64,000 nt of DNA from Lytechinus pictus (lineage: Eukaryota): positions 46,254,001 to 46,318,000 of the forward strand of contig NC_087251.1 in the NCBI RefSeq assembly GCF_037042905.1, given 5' to 3'. Numbering within the stretch: the first letter of the stretch is position 1; the number at the start of each line of letters is the position of its first letter. A program made the position numbers and the translations under genes. Of the stretch, positions 8,370-64,000 are shown one piece after another. The notes beneath the pieces were generated by a model. It was not told the origin of the DNA, ran no database searches, and was given only the letters and a program-made list of their open reading frames with translations.

Positions 8370-11300
8370 GCTCTCACTGCATTTCAAAAGATGTTAAATC
8401 ATTTCCCCTTTCTAACATATTAAAAAAATGTTTTTTTAACGAATTTAGAGTAAAATGCCTTGTGGATATTTTTTTTTAGTAACCTTATTTCAGTTTCACA
8501 TTTTAATCAAGACACTGCTGCATATTCACAGAATGATGTTGTTTGATAACTTTAATAAATTTTGTATTCAGATAAATCATGTTTTCACAATTGTTTTGAA
8601 ATCAGGAAAATTATATTTTCATCTTGCATCAAACATGCAGTAGAAATACTAAACATGCAGTAGTAATACTAAATGGTAAAATGAACGAACTAAAAATTTG
8701 TTATGATTAGTTTATTGTAATTCATTCTTTAAAGTGTAAAAAGGGTATCACTGCATCTGCATCACAACGTCTTATTCACATCAAGTTATAAAACGAATAT
8801 TCAAAAAATAATTAATCTGAAGAAATTTTGAACATGATTACCGAAACGAGACAAACGGCATATTCTATATTTGGTTCTCCCCCGATATAACAACAAAAAA
8901 AAGAATGAATTTCGATTTTTTTTTTTTGTGCTCTCAACCATCACTACTTGTATCATCCAAAGAGAAGTTGAATTTTCAATAGTATAAGTAAAATTTTAAC
9001 AGAGCATTTATTAACGATGAAGTAAGTTTATGATATTTTATGAACTTTTTCTTCAAAGAAAGAACCACCTGGAATACATATTACAAATAGATTTGAATGA
9101 AAGGTACTTAAACTTCAGATAATTGCAGGGTAATTGATTTATTATCTTTTGAAATGCAGTGGTAGGGTAAGTATTGTAAATATTCTTTATATACTATTTT
9201 ACTTTAGAATTCTCATAGCTGCTCGATATTACAATTATGATTGGTATAACAGTTTGGCAAATACAAGGGCCCTAGTTAGATAAACGTTATACTATTCGGG
9301 TATAACTGGTAACTAAATGTAGGTTGATCGTGGAACATGTGGAGATTACCATTGGATAGCAACTAAATTTTTAAGCAACTGGGTTCTACCCATAAACCAT
9401 TGCAGTGAAATTAAACTGATTGCTCGTTCAAACGGAAGAAGTTCTGCAGTACTTCTAAAAAAATCTCGGCTCTCGATAAAGTAATAAAAAATACAAAATT
9501 GATTTGATATGTGATCATTCAAATTCCAGTTCGAATCGGTCAGGATAACTTGTACGTAGTCTGCAGCCAAAATATCGTGATTGAAATTTTTACCATATTT
9601 ACTCATCAAGTTGATGAAAGTATAGCATAAAAAATCAAATCAAGAAGGGAGCTTTTACAATAGTATGCAAATTCAGGCCACTTTCTTAAAAAGAAATGGT
9701 TTACCCGGCAAACTAACTTAAGTAATTATATTTTATTGATAAAGATCATATCAGCTGATCGACAACGCCTAAATTTCATCTGAATTTCCGTTTCAAAACA
9801 AACTAAATTGCATATAAAGAAAACATAATGAAAGACAAAATAGTTCGTTGCCACTTGTAATATATATACACAAAAAAAGAAATAATAATAATAAAAAAAT
9901 GAATGGCTTGATGTCTTAGAAAAATGAAACAAGAATTGATACTGAAATGAAACTAACTGAATAAATATTCAGAAGACTTCCTTTCACTGTTGATTAAACG
10001 GAGATGGAGCAATCGGTATCGAAACCGAAGGTAGTCCATCACGGTACAGAGCGGGGTGGGGCTCTGTACACAGGGGTGGCGCCCGGTTAATTTTGATGGG
10101 AGGATGGGGTGTGAGACGACATTATGAAGATGGCTTTTTTCTCAATTGAATCAAAAGAAACATAGCAATTTCTTTTACACTTTTCATTCTCTTCCTTTCC
10201 CTTCTATTTTTATTTTTACTCTCCCCCAATTTTCACTACTTGAAAAAAAATTAGGGGAACACCCCCTGCCCCACCCCTTTTATGGTGCCGCCCGGCCTGT
10301 CTGTACAAAATGTCGAAAACATGTATTTCTAATATTATATTCGCAAGGTAGGTGTTGTAATTGGTCATTCATATAAAGTGGACTAAAAATAACTCCTCTC
10401 CTTCCTTTTTTTAAAAGGCTATGGCTATATGAGAAGGAGGAGAAGGGTTATTAGAAAAAAATATATACATTTGTCCAGAGGTGGTGTACATTGTGTGTGC
10501 GCGCGTGAAAGGAGAAGGTCATTCTGGGGGCCGTATCATTAACGGACTAGTCAGACGTTTCATCCGACTAAGTTTGCTTAATTAGTGTAGTCCCACACAA
10601 TATGTGTGGGACTACACGGAGCATATATGTTCATATTGTGGTAGCACATCGCATACCAAGTTCACTCACGTAACAGCAGAATTTGAGTCATATCACCACA
10701 AGATACCAACATTTGTGAAGCAAAAGCACTCAAGGAACAATTCGCATGTCAGAATCAACAAAATTATGATCATTTGCCAATCAAAAATGTAAGATTTCAC
10801 GTAGAAAAAGCGAAGGATATGTAGACGTTCGCGTCACGTAGACTGCATTGAGTGTTCATTATAATTATTATCATAAAGAAAAAAAAATACATACAAATTC
10901 AAAGGGAAAAAAATCGAGAAAATATCAAAAGAAAGCAATTTGAAACAAAAATATGTTTTTTCATCATGAAGAATTCAAAGAATCGAAGGGAAATTGAACT
11001 TTTCTGGAAAGAAAAATTGATGATATTAAATCAAATTTCGCAGTAGAACATCATTTCAGTTAGATTTGAAAAGTGTGTTTATTCTTTCTGAAAAGTTATA
11101 GTAATATTTCCTCACAATTTGTTTTGTCCATGTTTTGACAAAATGTTTTATAGTAATCAATTTCCTCATGTTTTTTTTGTTCATGTTTGAAAGGTTTCAA
11201 ATATGGGACAAAGAAAGATTCTGACTTTTCTAAAAGAGTATTATTATCCAAAGATACCCCTCGCCTGTCATACCTGTGATGTGAGTCTGTAACCTTGTAA

Positions 11301-17100: not shown

Positions 17101-20100
17101 ATTTGCTAATTAAATTCCGGCTTATTTACTTTTACAGGAAGTTCCTCTTCCTCATATTTTATTTGGTTATAAATCTGATAATATAACATTCTTCGTTTGC
17201 TCTGCTTTATTTAAATGATCATTGAATATAAATTTCTAAAGGCAAGTCTTGAAAATACAAAATCACAGCTTATTGCCCTCTCATTAATAACGACCTTAGA
17301 ATTGATGCAGTGGATACAGTCATATCCAAGCCCATTTCCACCATTTTCTTATAAAATAATGCTTTTACCGAAGCATGATATAAGGATATTTTAGGATGTA
17401 CAATATATAACATATTTTACTTTATTCAATGAATAAATCATTTCAATGTTTTAAAATGTATTGTTTAGTGTTAAATTATGAAATGCTCTTACACTCTGTA
17501 TGTTTGCAGGGAACCTGAATTTGATTTTTGATAATCCAATTTTTATTGAACTGGCCTTCCGATAAACCAAATTCAACTGTATTGAATGGATTGAATTTAA
17601 CAAATTTCATATATTTCTATGCTGTAAAAGTGTATGCGACGTGAGTATTGTGAGGCAACCCCATACTTGAAAAGGAGCGACATTCTCTATCGAATTTCAA
17701 GGTCTTCCCCCTGAAGCTAGCGATCAGTTCATGAATTCCTAGCTTTCTTAACCTCCTACCAACACCATTATCACGTAGATCTCACCGGGTGCTCCGAATA
17801 GAGAAGAATTCCAAAACGGATCAGCGAATGTCGTCAAAGAACTTGAACTTCACCCAGCCCTGGCATCCCGCACAGAACCGGCTTTAAACACCAACGATTC
17901 CGACAGAGGTGATTATTCCCCATTATCCATTCATTTAAGTTCCTCGAAATCGATTTAACACTACTATTTCTGAAGTGTTACCCCGGTGAAAGAAAGGGCA
18001 AGATTGTAATGCCATGTGCAATGTAAAAAGTACATCGATATATATACGTCCCACAACGCAAGTTTAAGAATTGAAACCAGTTCAAAGTCACGTCTCATCT
18101 TACCCTTCCCGATGGCAATTTGAACTCTTAATATAAGGAATTTAATCCTTATAATCAGTTGCACAGTCTCTTCCCTTAAAGCTACATTTACACACACACA
18201 CATACACCCTCACACACTCACACACACACACACACATATATATATATTTATCTGTAGCATATAGATGCAGGAGATGGGAAGGGGTGGATGATTTCCATGA
18301 CCTAGGTCTTCAAAAAAAATTACACAAGATACCAACCCCATTTCCATTCCCCGACGACCCTTCCCTTTCTCCAAATCGAATGCATGAAAAACTTTAATAA
18401 ATGAATGAATGAGTAAATGAATGAATAAACTGAATGAATGAATAAATGGATGAAAAATATGTAAATAAAAGAATAGCTAAATGAATTAATGAAATGATAA
18501 GTAAATGATTAAATAAAGAAATAAATGCATAAAATAAAGCAAGTAAATAAGTGCACTTCTGAGTGCTGATTTATCTCGTTCAAATTTGAGCTAGACAAAA
18601 TCAGCACTCCGAAGTGCAGTCACTATACACGCTCTTTAAGAGCTACATTAGCTCTTCGTTTTTTAGAGTGTGAATAAGTTTATAAATTTATATCTATTAT
18701 ATGGGATAGCTTGAATCCAGATCACTAAGGGCACTCCAGGGGTCTAGTGGTCATGACACCGGTCTAGTAATCCGGAGGTCGTGGGTTCAAATCACACCCA
18801 GTCTGCCTATGATTTTTTTTTTAGGTTTGCATCACGCAGCAGTTGCTGTGTTACCCTTGTGGTATTGTTAGAGAAACATGAATAACTTATACTTATTATT
18901 TAATTAAATTCAATTAAATTTATAACCTTCTCTTGACAGCGACTGCGGCATCGAGGAAGATTGCATTCTCTGTGGCAGCAATTGAACCACAGCTTGGCGT
19001 GTCAGGTGTTCCCCAGGCTGTCCAGTTTCAGGATATCTTAGAAAACATGGGAGAGGGTTTCCTTGCATCCAACCACACATTCATCTGCAGCGTCCCAGGA
19101 TGGTATTACTTTACATACAGGTAAGTAACTAGTGACCCTTGCCCTAGGAAGCGGGGTACAGGACCACCCCCTCCCCCATTCCCTCACGATTTTCTTGGCT
19201 TTTCTTTTTTTCTGACCAAAATCACCATTATTTAGGAGCAAAACTATTTTTGTGTGCTTCTAAATTGCTTTTTGACCAAATTCACCTTTATTCGGGAGTG
19301 GAAAAATCCCCGTTTTGCCTGTCATTTCCCCCCAAAACGGGACCCCCTTGCCATTTTTTGTTCATTGCACCCCCCCCCCCGCTTCTTCAAGTATGATAGT
19401 AAACTAAACTCCTTTTGGTAAATTTGATAAATGTCACTTTAAGAATATTACTTAGTTCAATTTGAATTGAATCTATTACCAAATTTAACTGGCATACATT
19501 CATATCAATGTAACATAATACATAGTATTGGGCGGCAGCTGGAGCTAATTTAGAAAAATTCTTAACATCTGTCAAAAAGTTCCTGCAAAACAGACAGACA
19601 TTGGTCTGCTTATAGGCTATTTGTTTGTCAAGATTTTCAAATGTTTAAAAGTTAATTTTAGTTGGATGCCAACATACACCCACTTCCATCTGCTTATAGC
19701 GACCAAGAACATCGCAATGACCTATGTATTGCTTAAGTTGGAAGACACTTATTCTATCTGTACATTTACAACATATTAATCGTATACAGCTTTTTCTTTG
19801 TCGAGTCTTCCAAAAGTTATAATATTAGTTTGGTGCCAACATACACGTACTCTCATCAGTTTATAGCTACAAGCACATCGCAGTGACCTATGGGATAAAC
19901 ACGCGCAGTGATGTCAGTCAATCCTCTTCGTAGTAACTCATTATCCAATCATTCCATCAATAAACGTCATCGAATTTTCTTTCCAAACTTCTTGTCTCAG
20001 CTTAAGGACCTTTCAGGGCAAGTACCTCAGCGTGCTCCTGATGAAGAATGCGGATTATGTAGTGGGCCTTTACACGGATAAAGACGACGTACGGAACACG

Positions 20101-21389: not shown

Positions 21390-21840
21390 CTCGCTACCCC
21401 AAATAGGAACAAAAATCTCATAATGCGCGAGACGAGATAATTTTCACTCCGTCGGGTCGTCATCACCACTTCCGGTTCAGAGTCATGCTCGCGCGAGGTT
21501 CGCAATACTGAGTTTTCCACCACGCTGAAATCGATGCCAATCAGCGTAATATGTACAGATTATAATACTTTTTATCTAGTTTGGTCAGTTTTGATTCCAT
21601 TTGAATTATAAATAAAAATAAAAAATATATTTCACGAGAAAATGTGAAAGAGAGGGTTGTGATCACGAACTTTCCGAGCGAAAGCGACGTTGTGCATGAC
21701 GGCACTGTTGATCTGAATGGCAAAACAGTGCATTGGACTTCCGATAAGGAAGTTGTAATACCGAAAAGCTATCCCATAATGCAATGCGCGTTACAGGGAT
21801 TTTCCCGGATCTCGGTGAAATCGCTATTTGGGGTAGCGAG
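21390..21840. mobile_element. MITE (451 bp, AATT TSD; Sola1-like) inserted into the Penelope ORF 3' end
   Basis: Perfect 17-bp TIR CTCGCTACCCCAAATAG (21390-21406) / CTATTTGGGGTAGCGAG (21824-21840). AATT on both sides (21386-21389, 21841-21844). Superfamily guessed from the AWWT target only. Confidence 0.8.
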
Positions 21841-23979
21841 AATTTGACGCTTCGGTGGTTTCCGGTTTGGTCTCGTTCGGTGTCTGCACTTTGAAATAAG
21901 TTCCGACCTTTTGTTTAGTGAGTTTCTGTTTGTTATTATGGACACTTTTTCCTCCAGGCAAAGATTGCACAAGCCACTTTTTCTTTGGTTTAAGTTTGAC
22001 TTTTTTTCGATTTCCCATGTTAGCGTAGATTCGATGTTCTTTTCCTTCAGATTCCATGTGTATTTTGAGAGTTGAGTTTCGTTCCGGTATCTTTCATGCT
22101 TAAATGATTTGAGGTGGTTTCTGTATCTATCTTTGAATGTCCCCCCTGCAAGCCCGAAGTAGTGTTTCTCTTCGTTGCCATGTCGGATCGTCGCCTTGTA
22201 TACCAGAGCCGTCTGCATACAGTTTCCTTGTAATGGACATTGGTTTTTTTGCCGACAGTTACATTTTGGCTTATTTTCCGCTCGTGGATTTGATTGCTTA
22301 ACAACTTTTTGGTTGTGGGTTTTTATTATGGTATCCATGTTTTTCATGCAACTGTAGCTAACCTTTATTGTGTTCTTATTGAATATTTGGTTCAATTTAT
22401 GTCCCTTGGGGAAGTGTTTCATTATTAGCTTTATGAATCTCCCTCCTACGTTGGTTTTCACTTCAGAATTGTAAGGTGGGTTAAACCAGGTGACTTTTCT
22501 ACTTCTATTTCTTCTTTTTCTTCCTTCTTCTACTGGTCTGATGTATTTGATGGTTTTGTCATACCCGCTTCTTTTCAGGGCGTCGTCGTATGCTGGCGCT
22601 GCTTTCTTGAATAGGTCTTCGTTAGAAGACAGTGTCGAGAGGCGCTTCTCAACGGCCGCAGGTATTTGGTTGAGGATAGGGGGTGGATGGTTAGATGCCC
22701 TATGTACGTAGGTCACCGTGTCATTAGGTTTTCTATATGGTTGAAAATCGCCTGTGTCTAGGTTGAGGGTGACGTCCAAGTAATCTACGATTTTTTGGTT
22801 AGTTTGGATGGTGATGCGTAGGCCGAGATCATTGAAGACCTTTATGAGGTCTTTTCGCGCCCTGTCCGCCCTGCTCCCTGATGCTCGTCGGAGTACCGCT
22901 AGTCCGTCGTCGCGGTATAGGCCTACACTATAGGTGTTGATTCTTTTGTTTAACTGTGACAGAGCATATAATCCTACGAGCTCGCAAATCTCGGCTCCGT
23001 CGTGGGCACCCATGGAAACATCAAATTGCTTTCGGCCTTCTCTTTTTTCCCACGCTTTGTTGTTGTTGTCGAAGAGCAATGTTCTCCTTGCGTGCATGAT
23101 CGTTTCCATTTCTTCATCTTCGATGGCAGTGAATTTCTGGGCCCAGCTTAGGCAGGTTGACAATAGCTCGATTGTGATGGAGGGGTAGAAGTCGATTATG
23201 TCAAATACAATAAATGATAATGATTCCTTGTCTGGTAGCTTTTTGAACCATTGTATTACATCGGCTGTGTTGGTCCACTGGTTTGGGTTGGTTTCTGCTT
23301 TTATTTGCTTGTTAATGCGATCAAGCATTATCTTGCTAACCCGGCCTAATTCGGGTTTCGTAGGGTTGATTAACCTGGCCTGGAGGTTGTTTTTGAAATT
23401 TTCCTTATGGTCTTTTAAAGTGATGAACGCTGCTTTTTCCGGTGTGTTGTTTATTCTATCACCGATGTCTAATTTTCTTGCAATCATTTCTGATTCACGG
23501 TCGATTTCTTCAATTATTTCTTCGTTGGCAGACTTGTATTTGCTTGTAATGTTCTCATTCAATAGCTTTTCGTATTTCCTGGGGGCCATCATGTATATGT
23601 TCCGGGTTTTGTCGGCATGAACGAATACTTTTTCTGAAGTATTAATAAGCTTAACATCTTCCCGGAGTTTCCTTTGGAATTGGTCATTTACCCGCCTAAA
23701 TTCCAACTCATCTACAATTCCTAATAAATCATTTTCAAAGTTTGTCATTTCATCTATCTGAGGGGGCGTGCGTTTTGATTTGAACCCAAATTTCTCTCTT
23801 TTGTCGTTTGCTTCGGTTTCACTTTGGCTTGTGCTGTCGTTTGCACTGAGGAAAAAATGCGCTCTCCATCTCATCCTTTTTATTACGCTTTCAATACTTT
23901 CTATTAGACATTTGATGTAATCTTTTCTTGGCGGAATTGGAATATTCTTACCGGAGTAATTTGCGTGAAACTGATCCAT
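21769..23979 (-). CDS. Penelope-type reverse transcriptase plus GIY-YIG endonuclease
   Basis: First ATG at 23979 (MDQFHANYSGKNIPIP). Motifs ADKT, FDIIDFYPSI, SMGAHDGAEICEL, YRDDGL, DYLDVTL, YVHRASNHPP, CNCRQKNQCPLQGNC, LVYKA..HYFG..FKDRYRNH, CNLCLEEK, LNKRSE..CRH. No internal stops. The last ~24 codons are read into the inserted MITE. Confidence 0.92.
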   Translation of the reverse strand: MDQFHANYSGKNIPIPPRKDYIKCLIESIESVIKRMRWRAHFFLSANDSTSQSETEANDKREKFGFKSKRTPPQIDEMTNFENDLLGIVDELEFRRVNDQFQRKLREDVKLINTSEKVFVHADKTRNIYMMAPRKYEKLLNENITSKYKSANEEIIEEIDRESEMIARKLDIGDRINNTPEKAAFITLKDHKENFKNNLQARLINPTKPELGRVSKIMLDRINKQIKAETNPNQWTNTADVIQWFKKLPDKESLSFIVFDIIDFYPSITIELLSTCLSWAQKFTAIEDEEMETIMHARRTLLFDNNNKAWEKREGRKQFDVSMGAHDGAEICELVGLYALSQLNKRINTYSVGLYRDDGLAVLRRASGSRADRARKDLIKVFNDLGLRITIQTNQKIVDYLDVTLNLDTGDFQPYRKPNDTVTYVHRASNHPPPILNQIPAAVEKRLSTLSSNEDLFKKAAPAYDDALKRSGYDKTIKYIRPVEEGRKRRNRSRKVTWFNPPYNSEVKTNVGGRFIKLIMKHFPKGHKLNQIFNKNTIKVSYSCMKNMDTIIKTHNQKVVKQSNPRAENKPKCNCRQKNQCPLQGNCMQTALVYKATIRHGNEEKHYFGLAGGTFKDRYRNHLKSFKHERYRNETQLSKYTWNLKEKNIESTLTWEIEKKSNLNQRKSGLCNLCLEEKVSIITNRNSLNKRSELISKCRHRTRPNRKPPKRQILATPNSDFTEIRENPCNAHCIMG

Positions 23980-24072
23980 CTCACCACACAAATGTAGACA
24001 AATCGTCGACAAGAAGAGTGCTCAACCAGTTGAAGGAGCAGGTTATATCCTTAGATGTGTAGATGCCGATGC

Positions 24073-33600: not shown

Positions 33601-34938
33601 AAAGCAGATACGAACCATCATCCTTATATCAATATCACTACCTCAAAACTTCAAGTACTCAAATTTGGCCAGATTCTTTACCCATGATGCATCATTCTGA
33701 GCAGTGTAGTCTTTCAATAATAGGCCCGCTTAAAATATAACATGCTAATTCACTTGAAAATACATTCTTAGTGCACTAATTATGTTAGCAAGTATAGGCA
33801 GAACAAGTACTTTCTTCCAAAAACAAACAATTTGGTCTGTATATATATATACAAATAAAATTATATTAAATCAAGTTATTCTCTGTATTATGAATAGTTA
33901 TCTCAAAAGGGATATTTCCAAGACTAGCTACTACACCACACTGTGGTATAGAAAATTATAAAAATAAAATCAATCTTTGCAGCTGGGATGAAAAGCGTAC
34001 GCAGCCAAGTCGATGATGATGACCTCTTTAAGACGTCAGCTGAGAAATCAAGAAAGTGTGAAATGGAGGATGAGATCGAGCTGGTGGGGGGAGCCAGCAA
34101 CAGTACGGACAAGGCAATATTAGAACTAAGTCAGCTTCAGATACAACCATATCATCTTTTAAATGATTCTTTTAGTAAAGGTACGTCCAGTAAAGAGGCG
34201 TCATGCCCACTCCTAACATAACATTCACTGTGTTCTTTTATTAATTTTATAATTTAAAGGTAGAAGATGGACAAATGAAGTGGAATACGATCCAATGCAA
34301 TCTTTAGTGTTAATTCCAATAAAATAAGAGTTAAATGCATTCGCAAATATAATTTTATGTATCGGATACCATGTAATTGTCAGAATTTATAGATGAAACT
34401 GACGAATCTTTCGAAGGTATAATAACATTTTCTACAATTTGTGATATTAACGTTATTCTTTATTTCATCTTATTTTTACTGTTGGAAAAATTTACTTCAT
34501 TTCTAAGCTGCTTCAGTTCATTTTCAAAGTCTTTACACACAACATCTATAGATGAATGATTTTCTTCTTTCTTATTTTCAAAACTTTACGATGAACGCTG
34601 TCTCTTTTCCTCGTCAATTTTCTATCTTCTTTATGAAACACAACAGAGATCATGCTTTGTGAAAGATACGAGTAAGGGAATATTATTTGGATCTAATCAA
34701 TGCAAAGGTTTTTATTATGTTTGTGTTTACACTGGCTCATTGTTAATTTTGTGTGTTGTTCTCTTTCTTTCTAGCACAACTATGTCAAAACGATAAAGAG
34801 GCTGAGGGAACCAACATCGCATCGATAGCCGTGGGCGCCACTTTGGCGCTTGTCATTCTCGTAGTCATCGCTGGCTATGCAATAGGACGTAGGATGGGCG
34901 CCATCACCGACAGAACCTCGTACAGTTCCATGGAGTAA
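27609..34938 (+). CDS. LAMP5: Lysosome-associated membrane glycoprotein family protein, single LAMP domain, LAMP5/BAD-LAMP-like, 316 aa
   Basis: Hand-spliced exons 27609-27675, 30180-30307 (NAGNAG alternative start 30183), 30725-30886, 31539-31676, 33183-33276, 33983-34180, 34775-34938. Phases 1,0,0,0,1,1; total 951 nt. Signal peptide, S/T/E-rich stalk, LAMP domain (NGKACIRACFSA, ARGTCG, SIQW, SW..RSLTFSYDT, SRKC, LQIQPY, QLCQND), TM IAVGATLALVILVVIAGYAI, tail GRR...DRTSYSSME. The symbol is by resemblance; orthology is untested. Confidence 0.88.
28544..29147. mobile_element. Kolobok-like MITE (604 bp) in LAMP intron 1
   Basis: TIR AGGACAAGTCCACCCCA / TGGGGTGGACTTGACCT (16/17 match). TTAA on both sides (28540-28543, 29148-29151). 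Long imperfect subterminal inverted repeats. Confidence 0.8.
31907..32377. mobile_element. Palindromic insertion with 13-bp TSD (probable inverted retroelement fragment)
   Basis: Near-perfect ~210-bp inverted arms spanning 31908-32343 with a ~25-bp spacer. Direct repeat CTGGTCCTGAATT at 31894-31906 and 32378-32390. Confidence 0.8.
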
Positions 34939-56861: not shown

Positions 56862-57921
56862 TAAATGATGCGAGCGCGAGCTGAAAATTTTTGATATTCA
56901 GACCAGAAAAAGAAGAACTGTTTTTATTTTAGGCATTCATGAAGAGCACCAATCCACTAAAGCGAACTTAAGCACGGACTGGAAATGTTTTATATTCAGA
57001 CCTTAAAAGGGCATAATTGCTTTATTTATCCATAATTACTTATATTATTTATTTATTTATTTAGTCATTCATTTATTCATTTATTAATTCAATTTTTCAT
57101 TCATTTCGATGTGAAAAAAACATTGAACATAGCAGCCTTATAGCTGAATTGCATACAATTCACAATGATTTATACAACAGTCAATAACATTTAAGAACAT
57201 CAAAATAGTAAAAAATCAACTCTCATCTAGATTCATGAATATGGACATAAAAGAAATAATTCGATAATAAAGATTTTATAGTATAATTTGTTTTGGGGGT
57301 GAAGTGGAAAGTGGGGTAAAACGGACTACCTAATTTTGGCTCGTCATATCTCTGTAATAGAAAATTCCCCCAAAATGAATGCAATATGAAATTGTTTTGG
57401 CACTTTTCGTGCTGAAGAGTGAGTCTTTGTCAGAAGCATTTTTGTCTCACCTGCATAGCAGAGTGAGACTATAGGCGCCGCTTTTCCGACGGCGACGGCG
57501 GCGGCGACGGCGGCGGCGGCGGCGGCGTCAACACCAAATCTTAACCTGAGGTTAAGTTTTTGAAATGACAGCATAACTTAGAAAGTATATGGACCTAGTT
57601 CATGAAACTTGGCCATAAGGTTAATCAAGTATTACTGAACATCCTGCCTGAGTTTCATGTCACATGACCAAGGTCAAAGGTCATTTAGGGTCAATGAACT
57701 TAGACCATGTTGGGGGAATCAACATCAAAATCTTAACCTAAGGTTAAGTTTTTGAAATGTCATCATAACTTAGAAAATATATGGACCTAGTTCATGAAAC
57801 TTATACATAAGGTTAATCAAGTATCACTGAACATCCTGCATGAGTTTCACATCACATGACCAAGGTCAAAGGTCATTTAGGGTCAATGAACTTTGGCCGA
57901 ATTGGGGGTATCTGTTGAATT

Positions 57922-59349
57922 GAATATATTAATTGTTGATCCATTAGTACACATATTTAATCTTTCCTTAATTAATGGCGTCGTGCCTGACAATATGAAA
58001 ATATCTAAGGTAATACCAGTGTATAAAAAAGGAGATACGAATAATGTATGTAACTATAGACCGATATCTTTATTGCCTACTCTATCAAAGGTTCTAGAAA
58101 GAGTGATGTATACAAGACTATTAGACTTTTTGAATAAATATAATATAATTTCTGACTTTCAATTTGGATTCCGCCAAAAGCATAGTACATCTCATGCTAC
58201 TCTTTCATTTGTTGAAAAAATCACAAAAGCTATTGATAACTTTGAACATACAGTAGGTGTTTTTCTGGACCTCTCCAAGGCCTTTGACACTATAAATCAT
58301 GAAATACTACTATACAAACTTGAAAATTACGGAATCCGTGGAAAGGCCTTGGAGTGGTTCAGGAATTACCTAATAAACCGTAAACAGTTTGTTAACATAA
58401 ATGAACGAAATTCTTCTCTACTAAAGGTCAACCGGGGTGTTCCTCAAGGTAGCATACTGGGCCCACTTTTATTTACGATCTATATAAATGACATCCACAA
58501 TTCTTCGACAATATTATCTTATATTCTTTTTGCAGATGATTCAAATGTACTTTATTCTCATCCCAATCCCGATATTTTAGTCAATATATTGAATATTGAA
58601 CTGGAGAAGCTAGTACAATGGATAAGATCTAATAAATTGTCAATCAATGTACAAAAAACGAAATGTATGCTTTTCAGCAATTCTTTAGATAAATTACCAT
58701 ACGATATTAAATTGGACAACGCTGACATTGAAGTGGTCGCTTCAACAAAATTTTTAGGCCTGATAGTAGACAACAATTATCTTGGAAAACACACATTGAT
58801 TCTATATGCCGTACAATTTCACGTAATATTGGTGTTATAAATAAGGTCAAGTTTTTTCTTCCATCTTCCTCCCTAAAAATGCTTTATTCAACATTAATTT
58901 TACCTTATCTAAACTACGGGATAATTGCCTGGGGAAATACACATACATCATATCTAGAAAGAATATTACTTTTACAGAAAAAGGCATTGCGCGTTATTTT
59001 TAATATGGCCTGGAGATCCCATACAGACCAATTGTTTATTGACAATAAAATCTTAAAAGTAAAAACATTATATCAATATAACTTGGGTCAATTTATGTAT
59101 CAATTAAATAATAATATGCTACCATCAATCTTCGATTCTTCATTTAACAAAAACAAAACTATCCATAAATACCCTACACGTCAATCCGACGAATTTCATT
59201 TTCCTTTACCCCGGACAATTCTTGCCAAATCTATCTTTACTTTCGAAGGCCCTCGACTTTGGGGCACTCTTAATAATACTATCAAAGATTCCCCAAGTCT
59301 AAATTCTTTTAAATTTAAGTTCAAAAAGTTTCTCCAAGATACTCGTTAG
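57922..59349 (+). pseudogene. LINE reverse transcriptase, 5'-truncated, one frameshift
   Basis: NYRPISLLPTLSKVLE, QFGFR, FLDLSKAFDTINH, GVPQGSILGPLLF, LFADDS, KFLGLIVD. A frameshift near 58778 joins ORF 57893-58840 to the frame of ORF 58879-59349 (YLNYGIIAWG, LQKKALRVI). Confidence 0.88.
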
Positions 59350-59815
59350 TTTGTTTAACTCTTCATCACTCATACATTATATTTTTCATTTATACTTAAC
59401 ACTACTAAGTGTGAAATATGATAATTTTCGTTTTCCTGTTGATCCGTAATATTCGCTGTGAGTGCCGGGGCAAGAATCTGGAGACCATTGATTTCGTTTT
59501 TTCTCTCATTTTCTATTTCTTTCTTTTCTTTTTTTCTTTTAAACTATTCATTTAAATAGATTTAAGCTCAACTTCTACATGTTGTATTTGTGTTTTGTTT
59601 ACATTGTTCATACAAATATGTAATAGGAGGCTGCATTCTACAAGCTTCGCTTTTTTAGCAGCCTCCTCCGTTTCCGACCTGTTATCTTAATTATTACATA
59701 TAATAAGTTTCTTTATTTGATTGATTATATCAAGATGTATGTAACAAAACTTATTGTAAATGATTGTAAATGATTGTTGGAAATGGAAAAATAAATGAAA
59801 TGAAATGAAATGAAA
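57922..59815 (+). mobile_element. 5'-truncated CR1/L2-group (Crack-like) LINE
   Basis: RT ORF2 fragment, 3' UTR stem GGAGGCTGC...GCAGCCTCC (~59626-59665), (AAATG)n tail, and TGAATT on both sides (57916-57921, 59816-59821). It interrupts one unit of the host tandem repeat. Confidence 0.88.
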
Positions 59816-62404
59816 TGAATTACCATCACAACTTTGAAAGTTTATGGATCTGATTCATGAAAATTGGACGTAATAGTAATCAAGTATTACTGAACATCCT
59901 GTGCAAGTTTCAGGTCACATGATCAAGGTCAAAGGTCATTTAGGGTCAATGAACTTTGGCCAAATTGGGGTATTTGTTGAATTACAGCCATAAATTTGAA
60001 AGTGTGTTGGTCTAGTTCATAAAACTTGGACATAATAGTAATCAAGTATCACTGAACATCCTATGCGAGTTCAGGTCACATGATCAAGGTCAAAGGTCAT
60101 GTAAGGTCAAAGAACTTTGGCCACGTTGGGGGTATTTGTTGAATTGCCATCATATCTCTATAAGTGTATTGGTCTAGTTCATAAAACGTGGAAATAAGAG
60201 TAACCAAGTATCACTGAACATCTTGTGCGAGTTATAGTAGTTTTCAAAATCAGCACTGCTGCTATATTGAATCGCGTGATGCAGGTGAGACGGCCAGAGG
60301 CATTCCACTTGTTAATTCTATTACAGGGGCAAAACGGACCCATATGGTATGTTTTTACCATGGGTCCGTTTTGCCACGAGACCAAAGTCCTTCTTATACC
60401 CCACTGGTACATTTTGGATATGACACGCGCCAGTGACCCCTAACGAAACATACACAAATTCATACATCACTCAATACATTCATGCTTTATAACATAATCA
60501 CCAAAAATCTTTAAAGGGGATGATGGCAAATTCTTCAAAAAAATAACCCTTATCAGTTCTATATATAGACTCTAAAATAACTTCAAGTACCCCTCATTTT
60601 GCGTTTTTCACTATACAAACGACATATTTTCTCTCTTAAAGATGAAATTTTTGTCAGATCCATCTTTTTTAAAGACGAATTACGCAATGATGTCATTTAG
60701 GCACTTGATACATGATACTTGATGTAGAAATCCCTTTGGCAACTCATACTGGGATGATGAATAAATTAGTGAGCCACTCATTGGCGCCACAGTGGGGCCG
60801 GCGATTCACGGAGATATGGGGTGGGTTCGTCTTACCCAATCTGTTTTACCACACTTTTCCCTATGTCATGAAAACGAGGCATATAATGTCACTATATGAA
60901 ACAATAATAACTCTAAGTGCGAGGAAATAATATTTGGTGTATATTGACTTGAAAACGGGATAATACAACAGGATTATATCTCATGATGATTGGTTAACAC
61001 ATATATGATATAGGCCCTAAGCAAATTATGTTTCATAAAGTTATGAAAGAAATATTTCTAATATAATAATAATAATAATATAACATAATACAATACAATA
61101 AACAATAATTTATTCATCCCCCACTTCGTTCCTCTAGCTTTCTTTCTCCCGCCCCCAGCACCCCGCTTCCTGCAGGGTCATTAGTAAGTAACCCCGTCTC
61201 CAGGATCGCTGCCATGCGCCGGCCGGCCGAGCAAAGCATTTTTCTTTTACCGGAGACGTTCAAAGCCACCATACCGTACACATCGCGCGTACAATTTGAA
61301 AAAAAAAATGGACGTGATAATATTCAACGAATAAAAACCTAAAAGGTTGAGAAGAAGATTGAACGTTTTTTTCCTAGCCGAAGGTGTTTGGTTCAGTCAG
61401 CGCAAATGCCAAAAGTTGACTGATATGTAGTTGAGAAAATGAACCCAACACAGGACTCTGAAAAAGTTGTGGACGGTCGCAAAGAATGGTAAGCATGATC
61501 TCATTTTCTTCAGTTCACACATTCAATCATGAATTTGCATACCGGTACCCGGTACGGTACCGGTACCTCAAGCGATGTTCTAACCAAAGGTAGCTCCGGC
61601 CCTCTTCGCTTCGCGGGCCGGAGCTCCCTGGGGCCGGGGCTGGGTAGCCAGGCGGCTTCTTGAGAGTAAAAATCATTTACTAACGTAGGCTTACTCTCAA
61701 TGAAGCCAGGGAGTCCTTCCTATTAATTCACCTACACGAAGGACCCCAAAACCTGAAACTTTCACCCCCGAGATTTCTACTTCTAAAAAGTAAAAGATCA
61801 TCTAGCTCTAAAAAAAATGTATAGCCTAGGCCCGGCCTAGGCCTACCCAGTTGTTGTGTGTCCGGACAGGTTGTGTGTCCGGACGATCAATTTTAGAAAG
61901 TCATTTGGAAAAAATTACAAGCGAAGTGTCATCAATTTTTAGTACAAAATGTAAGGAAATATTATAGAGAACAAAATATAAGATGATTACAAAACAACTA
62001 TTGAATTCATATTTTTAGTGTAGGCCTAGGCCTAATCTTACGACAAAAAAGAAGGCTTCAAAAATATAAAGTGTCCGGACACCCGATCCCCCATCCTACA
62101 TCATGGACATGGGTCATGGTCATGGGATAAAACTTCATTTCCGACATTTCTACGCTCTCGTTGTTATTTTTAAACAAGAATTCATCAAAAAAATTAGAAA
62201 AATATTGTGAAAAGACGGAAGAGACTTGCCCGAACTTCGGGACGGTGAATAATAATACGTGTGAGGAAAAAGATACAAATCACCAATTTTGAGGATAACC
62301 GGAAGATGGACACAGAGTGAAATACGGGTGAAGAGTAAGAAATTAAGCTATTTTACTTTCTCGTTATATTTTTTTCTATAATTTTTACAATAAATAACAT
62401 TTCC

Positions 62405-63736
62405 ATCCCACCTTTGTCACTCGGAATATCCGATCGAGTTCACCGTCCGACGCGTCCTGAAGTTCAGGTAGGTGGAGCGTAGTGTAGCGGTAGTGAAGTG
62501 GAGTGGAGCCTGCACGAACTTCCCCCGAGGTACGCTGCGCTAAACTACGTTGGCTCCACTCACGAATACATAGACTGAAGAGTTGTTGGCCCGTACCTAT
62601 AGACAACGTATAGTTATAGTGAACTAACGTTTTATAGGTTGCAATTTAAGACTGTCTTTTTAAGCGAAATTTACAGTTTCATGGTTTCCATTAGCAGGGA
62701 AATATAAATAATTTAAGACTTATTGCGTACCTTGGACCGGAGTAATTGAAAAAAAATCCTCTGGATGATTGAGAAATCTTTCATCTAAGACATTTTCACC
62801 TAAGCTGACGGCTTTTCTTGCAAGTCGCCATCTTGAATGACGTCATTATCCTTATTAACTTTTTAATGTCTCGATATACTTGTACTTGTATATTTCCTTC
62901 CTCCGGTCTTCGGAGATCGGCGGCAAGCCGCAGAGTTCAGGTCCTTTCTTGATGGTGCTGTCGACATAGGTGGATTTTTAAGATGTATCTTAGGCAGTGA
63001 CATGTCAGAGAGGAAGCAGAGGAGGAGGGCAGGGAGTGTGAGGGAAAGAGGATGAGGGGGTCATTTCCAGTATATCGAATGTCGTCTGCTACCTGTGATC
63101 GTAGCGGTTTAGCTCGCATGTGGAGCAGATCGTATGATATTGAAAGCGAAATAGATATCACATTCGTAAATTATTGATGCCCTCTCCGTTCGTTGGTAAA
63201 TACTTCATATTTTGGCTGCCATTTTGGGGGTGATTCTTGAGACCAAGACAAGTAAACATCGGTTAAGTACTATTTTATCTCATTTTAATCTATTTTTTCA
63301 AATTTCTTGATTCTTCACATTCTCAAGACATTATTTAGGTAGTATCTAAATCCTTAAGACTGTAAATTTGATTTTAAAAAAAATATTGAAGTCTGGATAG
63401 TACTAGTCGACCGAATTGATGACCGTGATAACACATGCGAGCTCACACTAACGTACTACCGTCGGTGAATGGGGATTATAGTGAAATGTCAGAAATTGTT
63501 AAGGAAATCTCCAGAAACGACGGTTATTCCTGAAACTTTGTGTAAATTAAGAATATTAGTTTTAATCATTCTTAAAGATCGTGATGTTGCATGAATTTTA
63601 TATTTTCCCCCCATAAAATCCCACCTTTGTCACTCGGAATATCAGAGCGAGTTCACGGGCTCGATGTTCGGGTAGGTGGAGCGTAGTGTAGCGGTAGTGA
63701 AGTGGAGTAGAGCCTGCATGAACATCGCTTGAGGTA
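62405..63736. repeat. Dispersed ~120-bp direct repeat pair (62405-62532, 63618-63736), possibly termini of a DIRS-type tyrosine-recombinase retroelement
   Basis: Shared ATCCCACCTTTGTCACTCGGAATATC..CGAGTTCAC and GGTAGGTGGAGCGTAGTGTAGCGGTAGTGAAGTGGAGTRGAGCCTGCAYGAAC...GAGGTA. The repeat is directly visible; the DIRS link is recollection only. Confidence 0.6.
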
Positions 63737-64000
63737 GAATTTGCACAATTGTAAGCCAAAATTTTGTTTACCGGGCCGAGCGGCGCGAGTAGCCAGACAG
63801 GAGTCTCCTGGAGCTGGAGATTAGTGTCACTGACGTGCTTAATCTCCAAGGAGCTACAGTAGCCTGGAGGCTTCTGGAGAGTAGTTTTACTGACATAGGC
63901 TTACTCTCCATGAAGCCTGGGACGGGATGGCCATAGGCCCACACACACCGAGTATTTTGGAGACAACAATGTTGCTCCAAAATACTTGATTTCTTTAACT

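What the first reader, a model, noticed from the sequence alone, without database searches (positions are those of the whole stretch)
61644..63923. Three paralogous hairpins with compensatory changes and a shared branch-point-like loop (ACTRACRT)
Seen: hairpin A (61654-61707) GGCTTCTTGAGAGTAA-[AAATCATTTACTAACGTAGGC]-TTACTCTCAA(T)GAAGCC and hairpin A' (63868-63918) AGGCTTCTGGAGAGTAG-[TTTTACTGACATAGGC]-TTACTCTCCA(T)GAAGCCT keep the same bulged T. They differ by a double compensatory change (T-A to G-C) and by A-T to G.T at the top. A third hairpin B (63815-63848) TGGAGATTAG-[TGTCACTGACGTGC]-TTAATCTCCA shows another compensatory swap (G-C to T-A). Each is preceded by GTAGCC. The G.T pairs work only on the + strand. 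Inference: a structured single-stranded RNA or DNA module under selection, presenting a TACTAAC/CTRAC-like loop. It could be a cis-element of a mobile element, a splicing-factor (SF1/QKI-type) decoy, or an undescribed ncRNA. No annotated feature here explains it.
Basis: partly seen in the sequence, partly recalled or inferred. Interest (0 to 1): 0.7.

Follow-up and report, generated by a model that had tools for sequence, protein, structure and literature searches.

The report
Hairpin-bearing ends of a DNA transposon
The three hairpins are real, but they are the left ends of copies of an abundant gene-less jumping DNA element (probably of the Academ kind) piled up in an intron, and the "branch-point" motif looks like part of an end signal that also occurs at the element's other end.

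Summary
The hairpins and their two-sided changes are real. The + strand asymmetry is not supported: as DNA the − strand folds about as well.

Hairpin A starts 9 nt inside a sharp repeat boundary at 61645, where 64 contigs run on into unrelated flanks. Read inward, it aligns with the A/A' ends as a degenerate split inverted repeat and carries the loop motif at the same 13-nt spacing, without the branch-point A (p about 0.002-0.06 for three pairings, weak for the fourth). One enclosing 2.2-kb element has a perfect 17-bp inverted repeat and a 9-bp target duplication.

Best reading: nested non-autonomous cut-and-paste transposons with TA...TA ends, most like Academ/AcademH. No transposase was found, A...R1 has no target duplication, and only three hairpins could be compared. 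A Helitron2-type reading remains possible. No discrete RNA was seen. The scan noted hairpin or split ends on Academ-like elements before, on other DNA (e1-7825700, e1-7787493).

The parts
61282..61488 (+). Exon of a host gene (ATG at 61439), followed by splice donor GTAAGC at 61489; everything below therefore lies in its intron (inferred)
   Evidence: a 1240-nt contig of run X7 matches 61282-61488 with 0 differences and then leaves; stranded RNA depth 21 vs 0; donor and ATG
61531..61539 (.). Left copy of 9-bp target-site duplication GAATTTGCA of outer element E0
   Evidence: p about 2e-4 given the fixed right end
61540..61563 (.). TACCGG-type palindromic array between the duplication and the inverted repeat: either a slippage expansion or, in the rival reading, a Helitron2 3' hairpin
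   Evidence: single-copy depth in the bin holding 61540-61552
61564..61580 (+). Left 17-bp perfect terminal inverted repeat of E0 (pairs with 63720-63736)
61588..61629 (.). Separate GC-rich hairpin (15-bp arms) near E0's left end; role not settled
61645..61707 (+). Left end A: TAGCC terminus plus hairpin A (61654-61707) holding the module ACTRnCR-N6-TACnCTCmA (61679-61700)
   Evidence: (boundary 61645: 64 contigs in X1, agreement 0.36; 16 in X16)
61844..62022 (+). Left part of a related high-copy unit C beginning TACCCAG; its right limit is uncertain (62022 or 62532)
   Evidence: boundary 61844, 85 contigs; depth dip at 62023; 10-bp flanking repeat, but inside a TAGGCC array, so ambiguous
62405..62532 (-). 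Right end R1 (ends GAGGTA on +); module at 62473-62494 on the - strand; outer stem GAAGTTC/GAACTTC
   Evidence: (boundary 62532, 49 contigs, agreement 0.37)
62866..63003 (-). 46-codon ORF reading inward from E0's right end; possible gene remnant, no homologue found
63618..63736 (-). Right end R2 of E0, 84% like R1; module at 63677-63698; outer stem GATGTTC/GAACATC (a third two-sided change relative to R1)
63737..63745 (.). Right copy of the 9-bp duplication
63790..63859 (+). Left end B: TAGCC terminus, small extra hairpin, hairpin B (63815-63848); probably cut off by insertion of A'
   Evidence: joint 63848 to 63941 in other copies
63860..64000 (+). Left end A': TAGCC terminus, hairpin A' (63869-63917), body running past the window end
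   Evidence: joint 61707 to 63932 in other copies

Best explanation
A, A' and B are the left ends of three copies (subfamilies) of an abundant non-autonomous DNA transposon family with TA...TA termini, nested in and beside each other in a host intron. The best family match is Academ; the 9-bp duplication points to the AcademH lineage. Inferred mechanism: a transposase supplied by an autonomous relative cuts at the terminal TA(C/G)C(C/T) and binds an inner module, ACTRnCR-N6-TACnCTCCA, present in inverted orientation at both ends (a split inverted repeat). The left end carries an extra inverted copy of the TACnCTCCA half, and this makes the hairpin. Matched stem changes arise from template-switch repair of the palindrome, or from selection on a folded or cruciform DNA end. 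I put roughly even odds on these two, slightly favouring repair plus binding-site symmetry. Shown: repeat nature, boundaries, one inverted repeat with one duplication, shared module. Inferred: superfamily, transposase binding, any role of folding.
For: Depth in X1 is 95,356 in the hairpin-A bin against 11-66 in bins 61085-61552; 10,313 contigs were laid. Boundaries with unrelated flanks lie at 61645, 61844 and 62532. Joints 61707 to 63932 and 63848 to 63941 show A-type and B-type hairpins leading into the same body as A' in other copies. All ends examined begin TA(C/G)C(C/T), a motif with frequency 0.0022 per site. Stem feet lie 9, 9, 10 and 10 nt from the terminus in A, A', R1 and R2. Left and right ends align: A/R1 3-14 of 500 dinucleotide shuffles and 16-172 of 2947 background 82-mers; A'/R1 4-10 of 500 and 1-10 of 2947. 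The module has the same 13-nt spacing in A, A', R1 and R2. The 25-nt block scores 16 of 25 at the right ends; background is 3.3e-4 per site, about 0.007 within 10 nt of the expected offset (plus my arithmetic). There is a 17-bp perfect inverted repeat with a 9-bp duplication. AcademH makes 9-10-bp duplications, AcademX 3-4 bp and IS3EU 6 bp (PMC10045372, passages and Discussion).
Against: No transposase or helicase was found in the window or linked to these ends. The putative element A...R1 has no 3-, 4-, 8-, 9- or 10-bp duplication. E0's duplication is 24 nt away from its inverted repeat, and E0's left end lacks the module. In a blind window-wide search, TA...TA pairs with 9-bp flanking repeats are at chance level (8 seen, 7.6 in shuffles). 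A'/R2 similarity is weak (42-71 of 500 shuffles). The pattern was written after seeing all four sites. The link between the A body and 62122+ rests on 3 contigs and a weak alignment (27 of 500 shuffles). Academ's YR...YR termini are recalled, because the AcademH paper is not held.
Confidence: 0.55

Rival explanations
1. Rolling-circle elements on the - strand. E0 would be a Helitron2/Helentron: 5' T, a 5' inverted repeat that also folds into a 5' hairpin, and a 3' inverted repeat 24 nt from the end followed by the TACCGG palindrome. A, A' and B would be Helitron-type 3' ends: a hairpin about 10 nt before CTA(C/G), then T. The HUH enzyme would read the hairpins as single-stranded DNA.
For: E0 read on - fits the Helitron2 layout (5' repeat 0-2 bp from the end, 3' repeat 20-30 bp from the end upstream of a hairpin, compensatory changes reported). 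Some non-autonomous Helitron2 have 7-19-bp duplications (PMC3627910, passages). On - the ends of A' and B read CTAC then T, and the X1 flank consensus gives CTAG then T. The hairpins fold at least as well on - for A and B.
Against: CTAC is not CTRR; A and the X16 consensus lack the following T; no 5' TC. T|T insertion is not met at E0 or R1 in the window (criteria from PMC8969392 and PMC11417382, passages). The TACCGG palindrome sits in a single-copy-depth bin (22.7, 5.1, 0), and TA-SSSS-TA arrays are common here anyway (TAGGCCTA 11 times). A-type and R-type ends resemble each other from the very terminus inward, as an inverted repeat would. E0's repeat is 17 bp against the 8-15 described.
Confidence: 0.17
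2. Another cut-and-paste superfamily (MuDR-like, IS3EU/GingerRoot) or an unclassified TA...TA lineage; same working principle, different enzyme.
For: IS3EU has TA..TA termini, and MuDR-related groups make 4-10-bp duplications (PMC10045372). No transposase ties these ends to Academ.
Against: IS3EU duplications are usually 6 bp; no 6-bp duplication flanks a TA start and TA end here. MuDR termini are recalled as G...C, not TA.
Confidence: 0.15
3. The hairpins work as RNA: a structured ncRNA or a decoy presenting a branch-point motif to SF1/QKI-type proteins or U2.
For: They lie on the sense strand of an intron. Loops read TACTAAC, TACTGAC and CACTGAC. + strand RNA exceeds - strand RNA about 3:1 in the hairpin-A bin (59.9 vs 21.3). 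A' folds better on + as RNA.
Against: No Rfam match. No discrete ends, reads on both strands, and 90% run on into unlike sequence. The first AG is 4-5 nt after the branch A in A and A', and the next acceptor is AAG, buried in the stem. The aligned motif at the right end is antisense and reads CACTACCG. Position fixed relative to a DNA terminus argues for a DNA role.
Confidence: 0.05
4. A DIRS/Ngaro or Crypton tyrosine-recombinase element, or a eukaryotic REP/IS200-IS605-like element read by a Y1 HUH enzyme (GTAG tag plus bulged hairpin).
For: Two pairs of direct repeats and a 17-nt complementary stretch. GTAG precedes each hairpin. A bulged T in an imperfect subterminal hairpin is recalled for IS608.
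Against: The repeat order is A, R, R, B, A', not A1-B1-A2-B2; each repeat is an independent element end; and these classes make no target duplication (PMC8969392, PMC3627910, PMC3212892, passages). The G of GTAG falls outside the best-supported boundary.
Confidence: 0.06

Closest known systems
AcademH lineage of the Academ superfamily (Kojima 2020, Mob DNA 11:15; not held, known here through PMC10045372 passages/Discussion and recall)
   Same: 9-bp target duplication on E0; TA...TA termini fit the recalled YR...YR signature; animal host; non-autonomous copies abundant
   Different: No transposase or RecQ helicase shown. Inverted repeat is short or degenerate, whereas long ones are recalled for AcademH. 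No duplication for A...R1. Hairpins inside the ends were not found described in the papers searched.
Helitron2 / Helentron / HINE (PMC3627910, PMC4067079, PMC11417382; passages read)
   Same: Hairpins near both ends, compensatory changes between related families, 5' T; E0 on the - strand fits the asymmetric-repeat layout
   Different: T|T insertion not met in the window; the would-be 3' hairpin is not high-copy; the usual partner ends are symmetric from the terminus
IS3EU/GingerRoot (PMC10045372, passages)
   Same: TA..TA termini
   Different: 6-bp duplication expected; 9 bp seen
IS200/IS605 ends and bacterial REP sequences (search listings only: PMC6006769, PMC8266576, PMC3733652; details recalled)
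   Same: Imperfect subterminal hairpins at both ends at a fixed distance from the cut; a possible model for how a folded end could work
   Different: These have no target duplication and need a Y1 HUH enzyme; the GTAG tag is not inside the boundary here

Membership tests
AcademH | 9-10-bp target-site duplication | tested here: inconclusive
   Met for E0 (1 element) but 24 nt outside its inverted repeat; not met for A...R1; ambiguous for C; the right ends of A' and B are outside the window
Academ | YR...YR (here TA...TA) termini (recalled signature) | tested here: met
   All ends begin TA(C/G)C(C/T); three of them are confirmed as boundaries
Academ | Terminal inverted repeats | tested here: met
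   17 bp perfect for E0; degenerate split repeat for A/R1
Academ | Academ DDE transposase, with RecQ helicase (H) or XPG nuclease (X), in an autonomous relative | not testable with these tools
   No genome held; no remnant identified; no related loci in collection scans
AcademX | 3-4-bp duplication | tested here: not met
   No 3-4-bp duplication links start 61645 or end 62532 to a partner, and none joins the paired ends of E0
Helitron1 (HLE1) | 3' hairpin plus CTRR, 5' TC, insertion A|T | tested here: not met
   Ends read CTAC on -, and the partner end starts TACC; the following T is present for A', B and the X1 consensus, absent for A and X16
Helitron2/Helentron (HLE2) | 5' repeat at the end within a hairpin, 3' repeat 20-30 bp from the end before a hairpin | tested here: inconclusive
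   Layout fits E0 on -, but the 3' palindrome is not high-copy
Helitron2/Helentron (HLE2) | Insertion between T and T | tested here: not met
   Base before the terminal T on - is C (R2) and G (R1); flank consensus is T in X1, C in X22
IS3EU/GingerRoot | 6-bp duplication with TA..TA termini | tested here: not met
DIRS/Ngaro | A1-internal-B1-A2-B2 split repeats or ITR plus ICR, no duplication | tested here: not met
   Order and boundaries; duplication
Known structured RNA (Rfam 15) | Covariance-model match | tested here: not met
   No gathering hit in 60.5-64 kb; 2 weak hits far below gathering score and outside the hairpins
Repbase/Dfam family | Direct match to a described consensus | not testable with these tools

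The most novel reading that the evidence does not exclude
Helicase-carrying Academ transposons recognise their ends as folded single strands. The RecQ helicase would unwind each end so that the stems (three independent two-sided changes across A/A'/B and R1/R2, a kept bulge, feet 9-10 nt from the cut) form and present the ACTRnCR loop to the transposase. Left and right ends would differ by about one helical turn (closing GAA at 58 vs 68; stem ends 63 vs 74). That would be a DDE transposon using an IS608/REP-like single-strand recognition step, and it would explain why AcademH carries a helicase.
Probability: 0.15. Interest if true: 0.72.

Novelty: new variant of a known kind. Interest (0 to 1): 0.35.

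Why it matters
At minimum it turns an apparent ncRNA or splicing decoy into a transposon end and gives a sequence signature (terminus plus ACTRnCR-N6-TACnCTCmA module) for collecting and classifying a very abundant repeat family. Academ is a little-studied superfamily; none of my paper searches turned up an account of how its ends are recognised, and the main paper could not be read. If the stems prove to be selected across many copies, they give a direct, testable handle on what the Academ helicase or nuclease does.

Tried and rejected
No whole genome is held, so genome-wide covariation could not be run.

Collection scans found no relatives. Viral contigs: 0 hits in 4 scans, and 89 hits with a loose pattern. 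Metagenomes: 0 and 2 hits in fungal-looking DNA. Prokaryote genomes: 2 hits without a hairpin. Plasmids: none. The hairpin model scored 0 matches on all 84 fetched loci (80 of the 89 viral hits were fetched) and found only the three known copies in the window.

No RNA holder was listed; this is no evidence on expression.

The inward-reading small ORF found no homologue: 0 of 15 candidates, 3 repetitive unrelated proteins, atlas scores of 0.78 or less.

The right-end stems are not significantly stable as DNA (z -0.3 to -0.9). The bacterial promoter/terminator scan is irrelevant here. Ribozyme resemblance (twister, HDV-like, hammerhead) was considered from memory and dropped for lack of an Rfam hit. 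Troyka was rejected on termini (CG...CG, abstract only). The 10-bp repeat around 61844-62022 was not accepted as a duplication, because contigs run through 62022 and it lies in a TAGGCC array. Searches of earlier findings by sequence and by nearby place were empty.
Full report
Setting. The window is AT-rich animal DNA with few long ORFs. Earlier scan notes call the genome a sea urchin (unchecked by me). No whole genome is held. A spliced exon at 61282-61488 ends at a GTAAGC donor, and its reads are stranded, so the finding lies in the intron of a + strand gene (inferred).

Observation. On a three-row alignment, 44 of 46 cells pair. Two pairs change on both sides, one changes to G.T, and two outer pairs break in B. 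Under independent substitution, keeping all pairs with a two-sided change has P about 0.006-0.009 for A to A' and 0.017-0.019 for A' to B. The column-shuffle control is not significant (49 of 500). The claimed + strand preference rests on one terminal G.T pair. As DNA the - strand folds better for A and B and 0.6 kcal/mol worse for A'; as RNA, A favours -, A' favours +, and B is even. ACTRACRT is no more common in the window than chance (11 seen, 10.9 expected); the three copies share it by descent.

They are repeat ends. I laid 4 of the 24 listed runs on 60500-64000. In DNA run X1, 10,313 contigs were laid. Mean word depth is 11-66 over 61085-61552 and 95,356 in the bin holding most of hairpin A. 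The tool warns that this is no copy number, so I read it only as 'very abundant'. Contigs leave the window into mutually unrelated flanks at 61645 (64 contigs, agreement 0.36; also X16), 61844 (85) and 62532 (49). Depth at 61711, just past the hairpin, is only 5,537. If 61553-61644 contributes little, the first 25 nt of A have a depth near 205,000 (my arithmetic), which would make terminus-to-hairpin-foot the most widely shared piece. Joints 61707 to 63932 and 63848 to 63941 show that in other copies A-type and B-type hairpins lead into the body that follows A' here. Only the best-supported rows are shown by the tool (15 of 188 joints, 24 of 1,921 loose ends), so an empty site for any element could not be checked. 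A' and B have no listed boundary row; their ends are inferred from likeness to A.

The other end. A second repeat pair, R1 62405-62532 and R2 63618-63736 (84% alike), ends in GAGGTA. It has its own two-sided change in an outer stem (GAAGTTC/GAACTTC to GATGTTC/GAACATC), though that stem is not significantly stable as DNA. The last 17 nt of R2 are the exact reverse complement of 61564-61580, and GAATTTGCA flanks 61540-63736 on both sides. Given the fixed right end and a 30-nt search range, chance is about 2e-4. A blind search of the whole window finds such 9-bp flanks at chance level (8 vs 7.6), and 24 nt of TACCGG-type palindrome separate the duplication from the inverted repeat.

Left and right ends compared. 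All start TA(C/G)C(C/T), the stem foot is 9-10 nt in, and a module ACTRnCR-N6-TACnCTCmA sits at positions 35/48 (A), 30/43 (A') and 39/52 (R1, R2); B has it with 2 nt less spacing. Across three scoring schemes, shuffles reaching the score number 3-14 of 500 for A/R1, 2-7 for A/R2, 4-10 for A'/R1 and 42-71 for A'/R2; background 82-mers give 1-172 of 2947 for the first three pairings. The pattern matches only these four sites in the window, but it was written after seeing them. This is moderate, not strong, evidence. If right, the 'branch-point' motif is half of an end signal, and at the right end it is antisense and reads CACTACCG. The closing GAA lies at 58 in A and 68 in R1, a one-turn difference like that in notes e1-7787493 and e1-7594974; this is a single pair, and A' gives 53.

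RNA. In one stranded long-RNA run (about 6% read), reads over the repeats come from both strands, 90% run on into unlike sequence, and no place has many starts or ends. + strand RNA is about three times - strand RNA over hairpin A. This fits repeat copies carried inside many longer transcripts; it cannot exclude a small RNA. Rfam has no match. As a 3' splice site the unit is poor: the first AG is too close to the branch A in A and A', and the next is an AAG inside the stem.

How it most likely works. Shown: abundant interspersed repeat, sharp TA termini, one inverted repeat with a 9-bp duplication. Inferred: a transposase from an autonomous relative cuts at the TA termini and binds the inner module at both ends. 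The left end carries a second, inverted copy of the TACnCTCCA half, which produces the hairpin. The right end holds tandem GnAGY-like units inside a wider stem. Matched stem changes can come in one step from template-switch repair of a palindrome (established knowledge, recalled), so they do not prove selection on structure. The kept bulge, the fixed 9-10-nt offset at both ends and the third two-sided change across a 50-nt loop keep the folded-DNA reading alive.

Comparison with known families. AcademH makes 9-10-bp duplications, AcademX 3-4 bp, and IS3EU has TA..TA ends with 6 bp (PMC10045372; passages; Discussion). Academ's YR...YR termini are recalled; the AcademH paper and Kojima's review are not held, and they or their supplements may already show such ends. 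PMC4455052, PMC12210899, PMC8290104 and PMC4298943 (passages) give no end structure. Helitron2 (PMC3627910, PMC4067079, PMC8969392, PMC11417382; passages) is the serious rival: E0 on the - strand fits its layout, and A' and B end CTAC then T. But T|T and CTRR are not met, and the would-be 3' palindrome is not abundant. Crypton and DIRS/Ngaro fail on duplication and repeat order. Membership in Academ is therefore likely but unproven: the enzyme test could not be run, and A...R1 has no duplication.

Verdict. A real feature, mostly explained as the ends of a gene-less DNA transposon family. What remains unusual is a covarying hairpin built into a split terminal repeat, not found in my six relevant paper searches but noted by this scan on other Academ-like DNA. 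Interest 0.35.

Noticed in passing
window 21769-24021 (-): Open 750-codon frame that by eye looks like a Penelope-like retroelement (reverse transcriptase motif YRDD, GIY-YIG-like tail); Pfam gave no hit at 1e-3.
   Followed up: partly
window 57890-59349 (+): LINE reverse transcriptase (PF00078, E 8e-40) in two frames, frameshifted near 58800.
   Followed up: partly
window 57536-57922 and 59791-60233: Tandem 162-192-bp repeat units on both sides of the LINE fragment, suggesting the LINE inserted into an array.
   Followed up: no
whole window: TAGGCCTA occurs 11 times (about 0.7 expected by my arithmetic) and TACATGTA 8 times (about 2 expected). TA-SSSS hexamer arrays abut two element ends (61540-61563, 61822-61843); they may be footprints or slippage products of TA-ended transposons.
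   Followed up: partly
window 18740-18800 (+): tRNA-like match, 37.3 bits; possibly a SINE head.
   Followed up: no
window 10548-10614 and 34826-34877: Short TAG...CTA palindromic units, possibly small relatives or relics of TA-ended elements.
   Followed up: no
window 60851-61084 and 63425-63541: Further very high-depth repeat pieces (X1 depth about 55,000 and 91,000) not studied.
   Followed up: no
window 61859-61885 and 62071-62081: Unit C has its own 10-pair hairpin about 15 nt inside its end, built from a palindromic TGTCCGGACA motif that recurs at 62071.
   Followed up: partly
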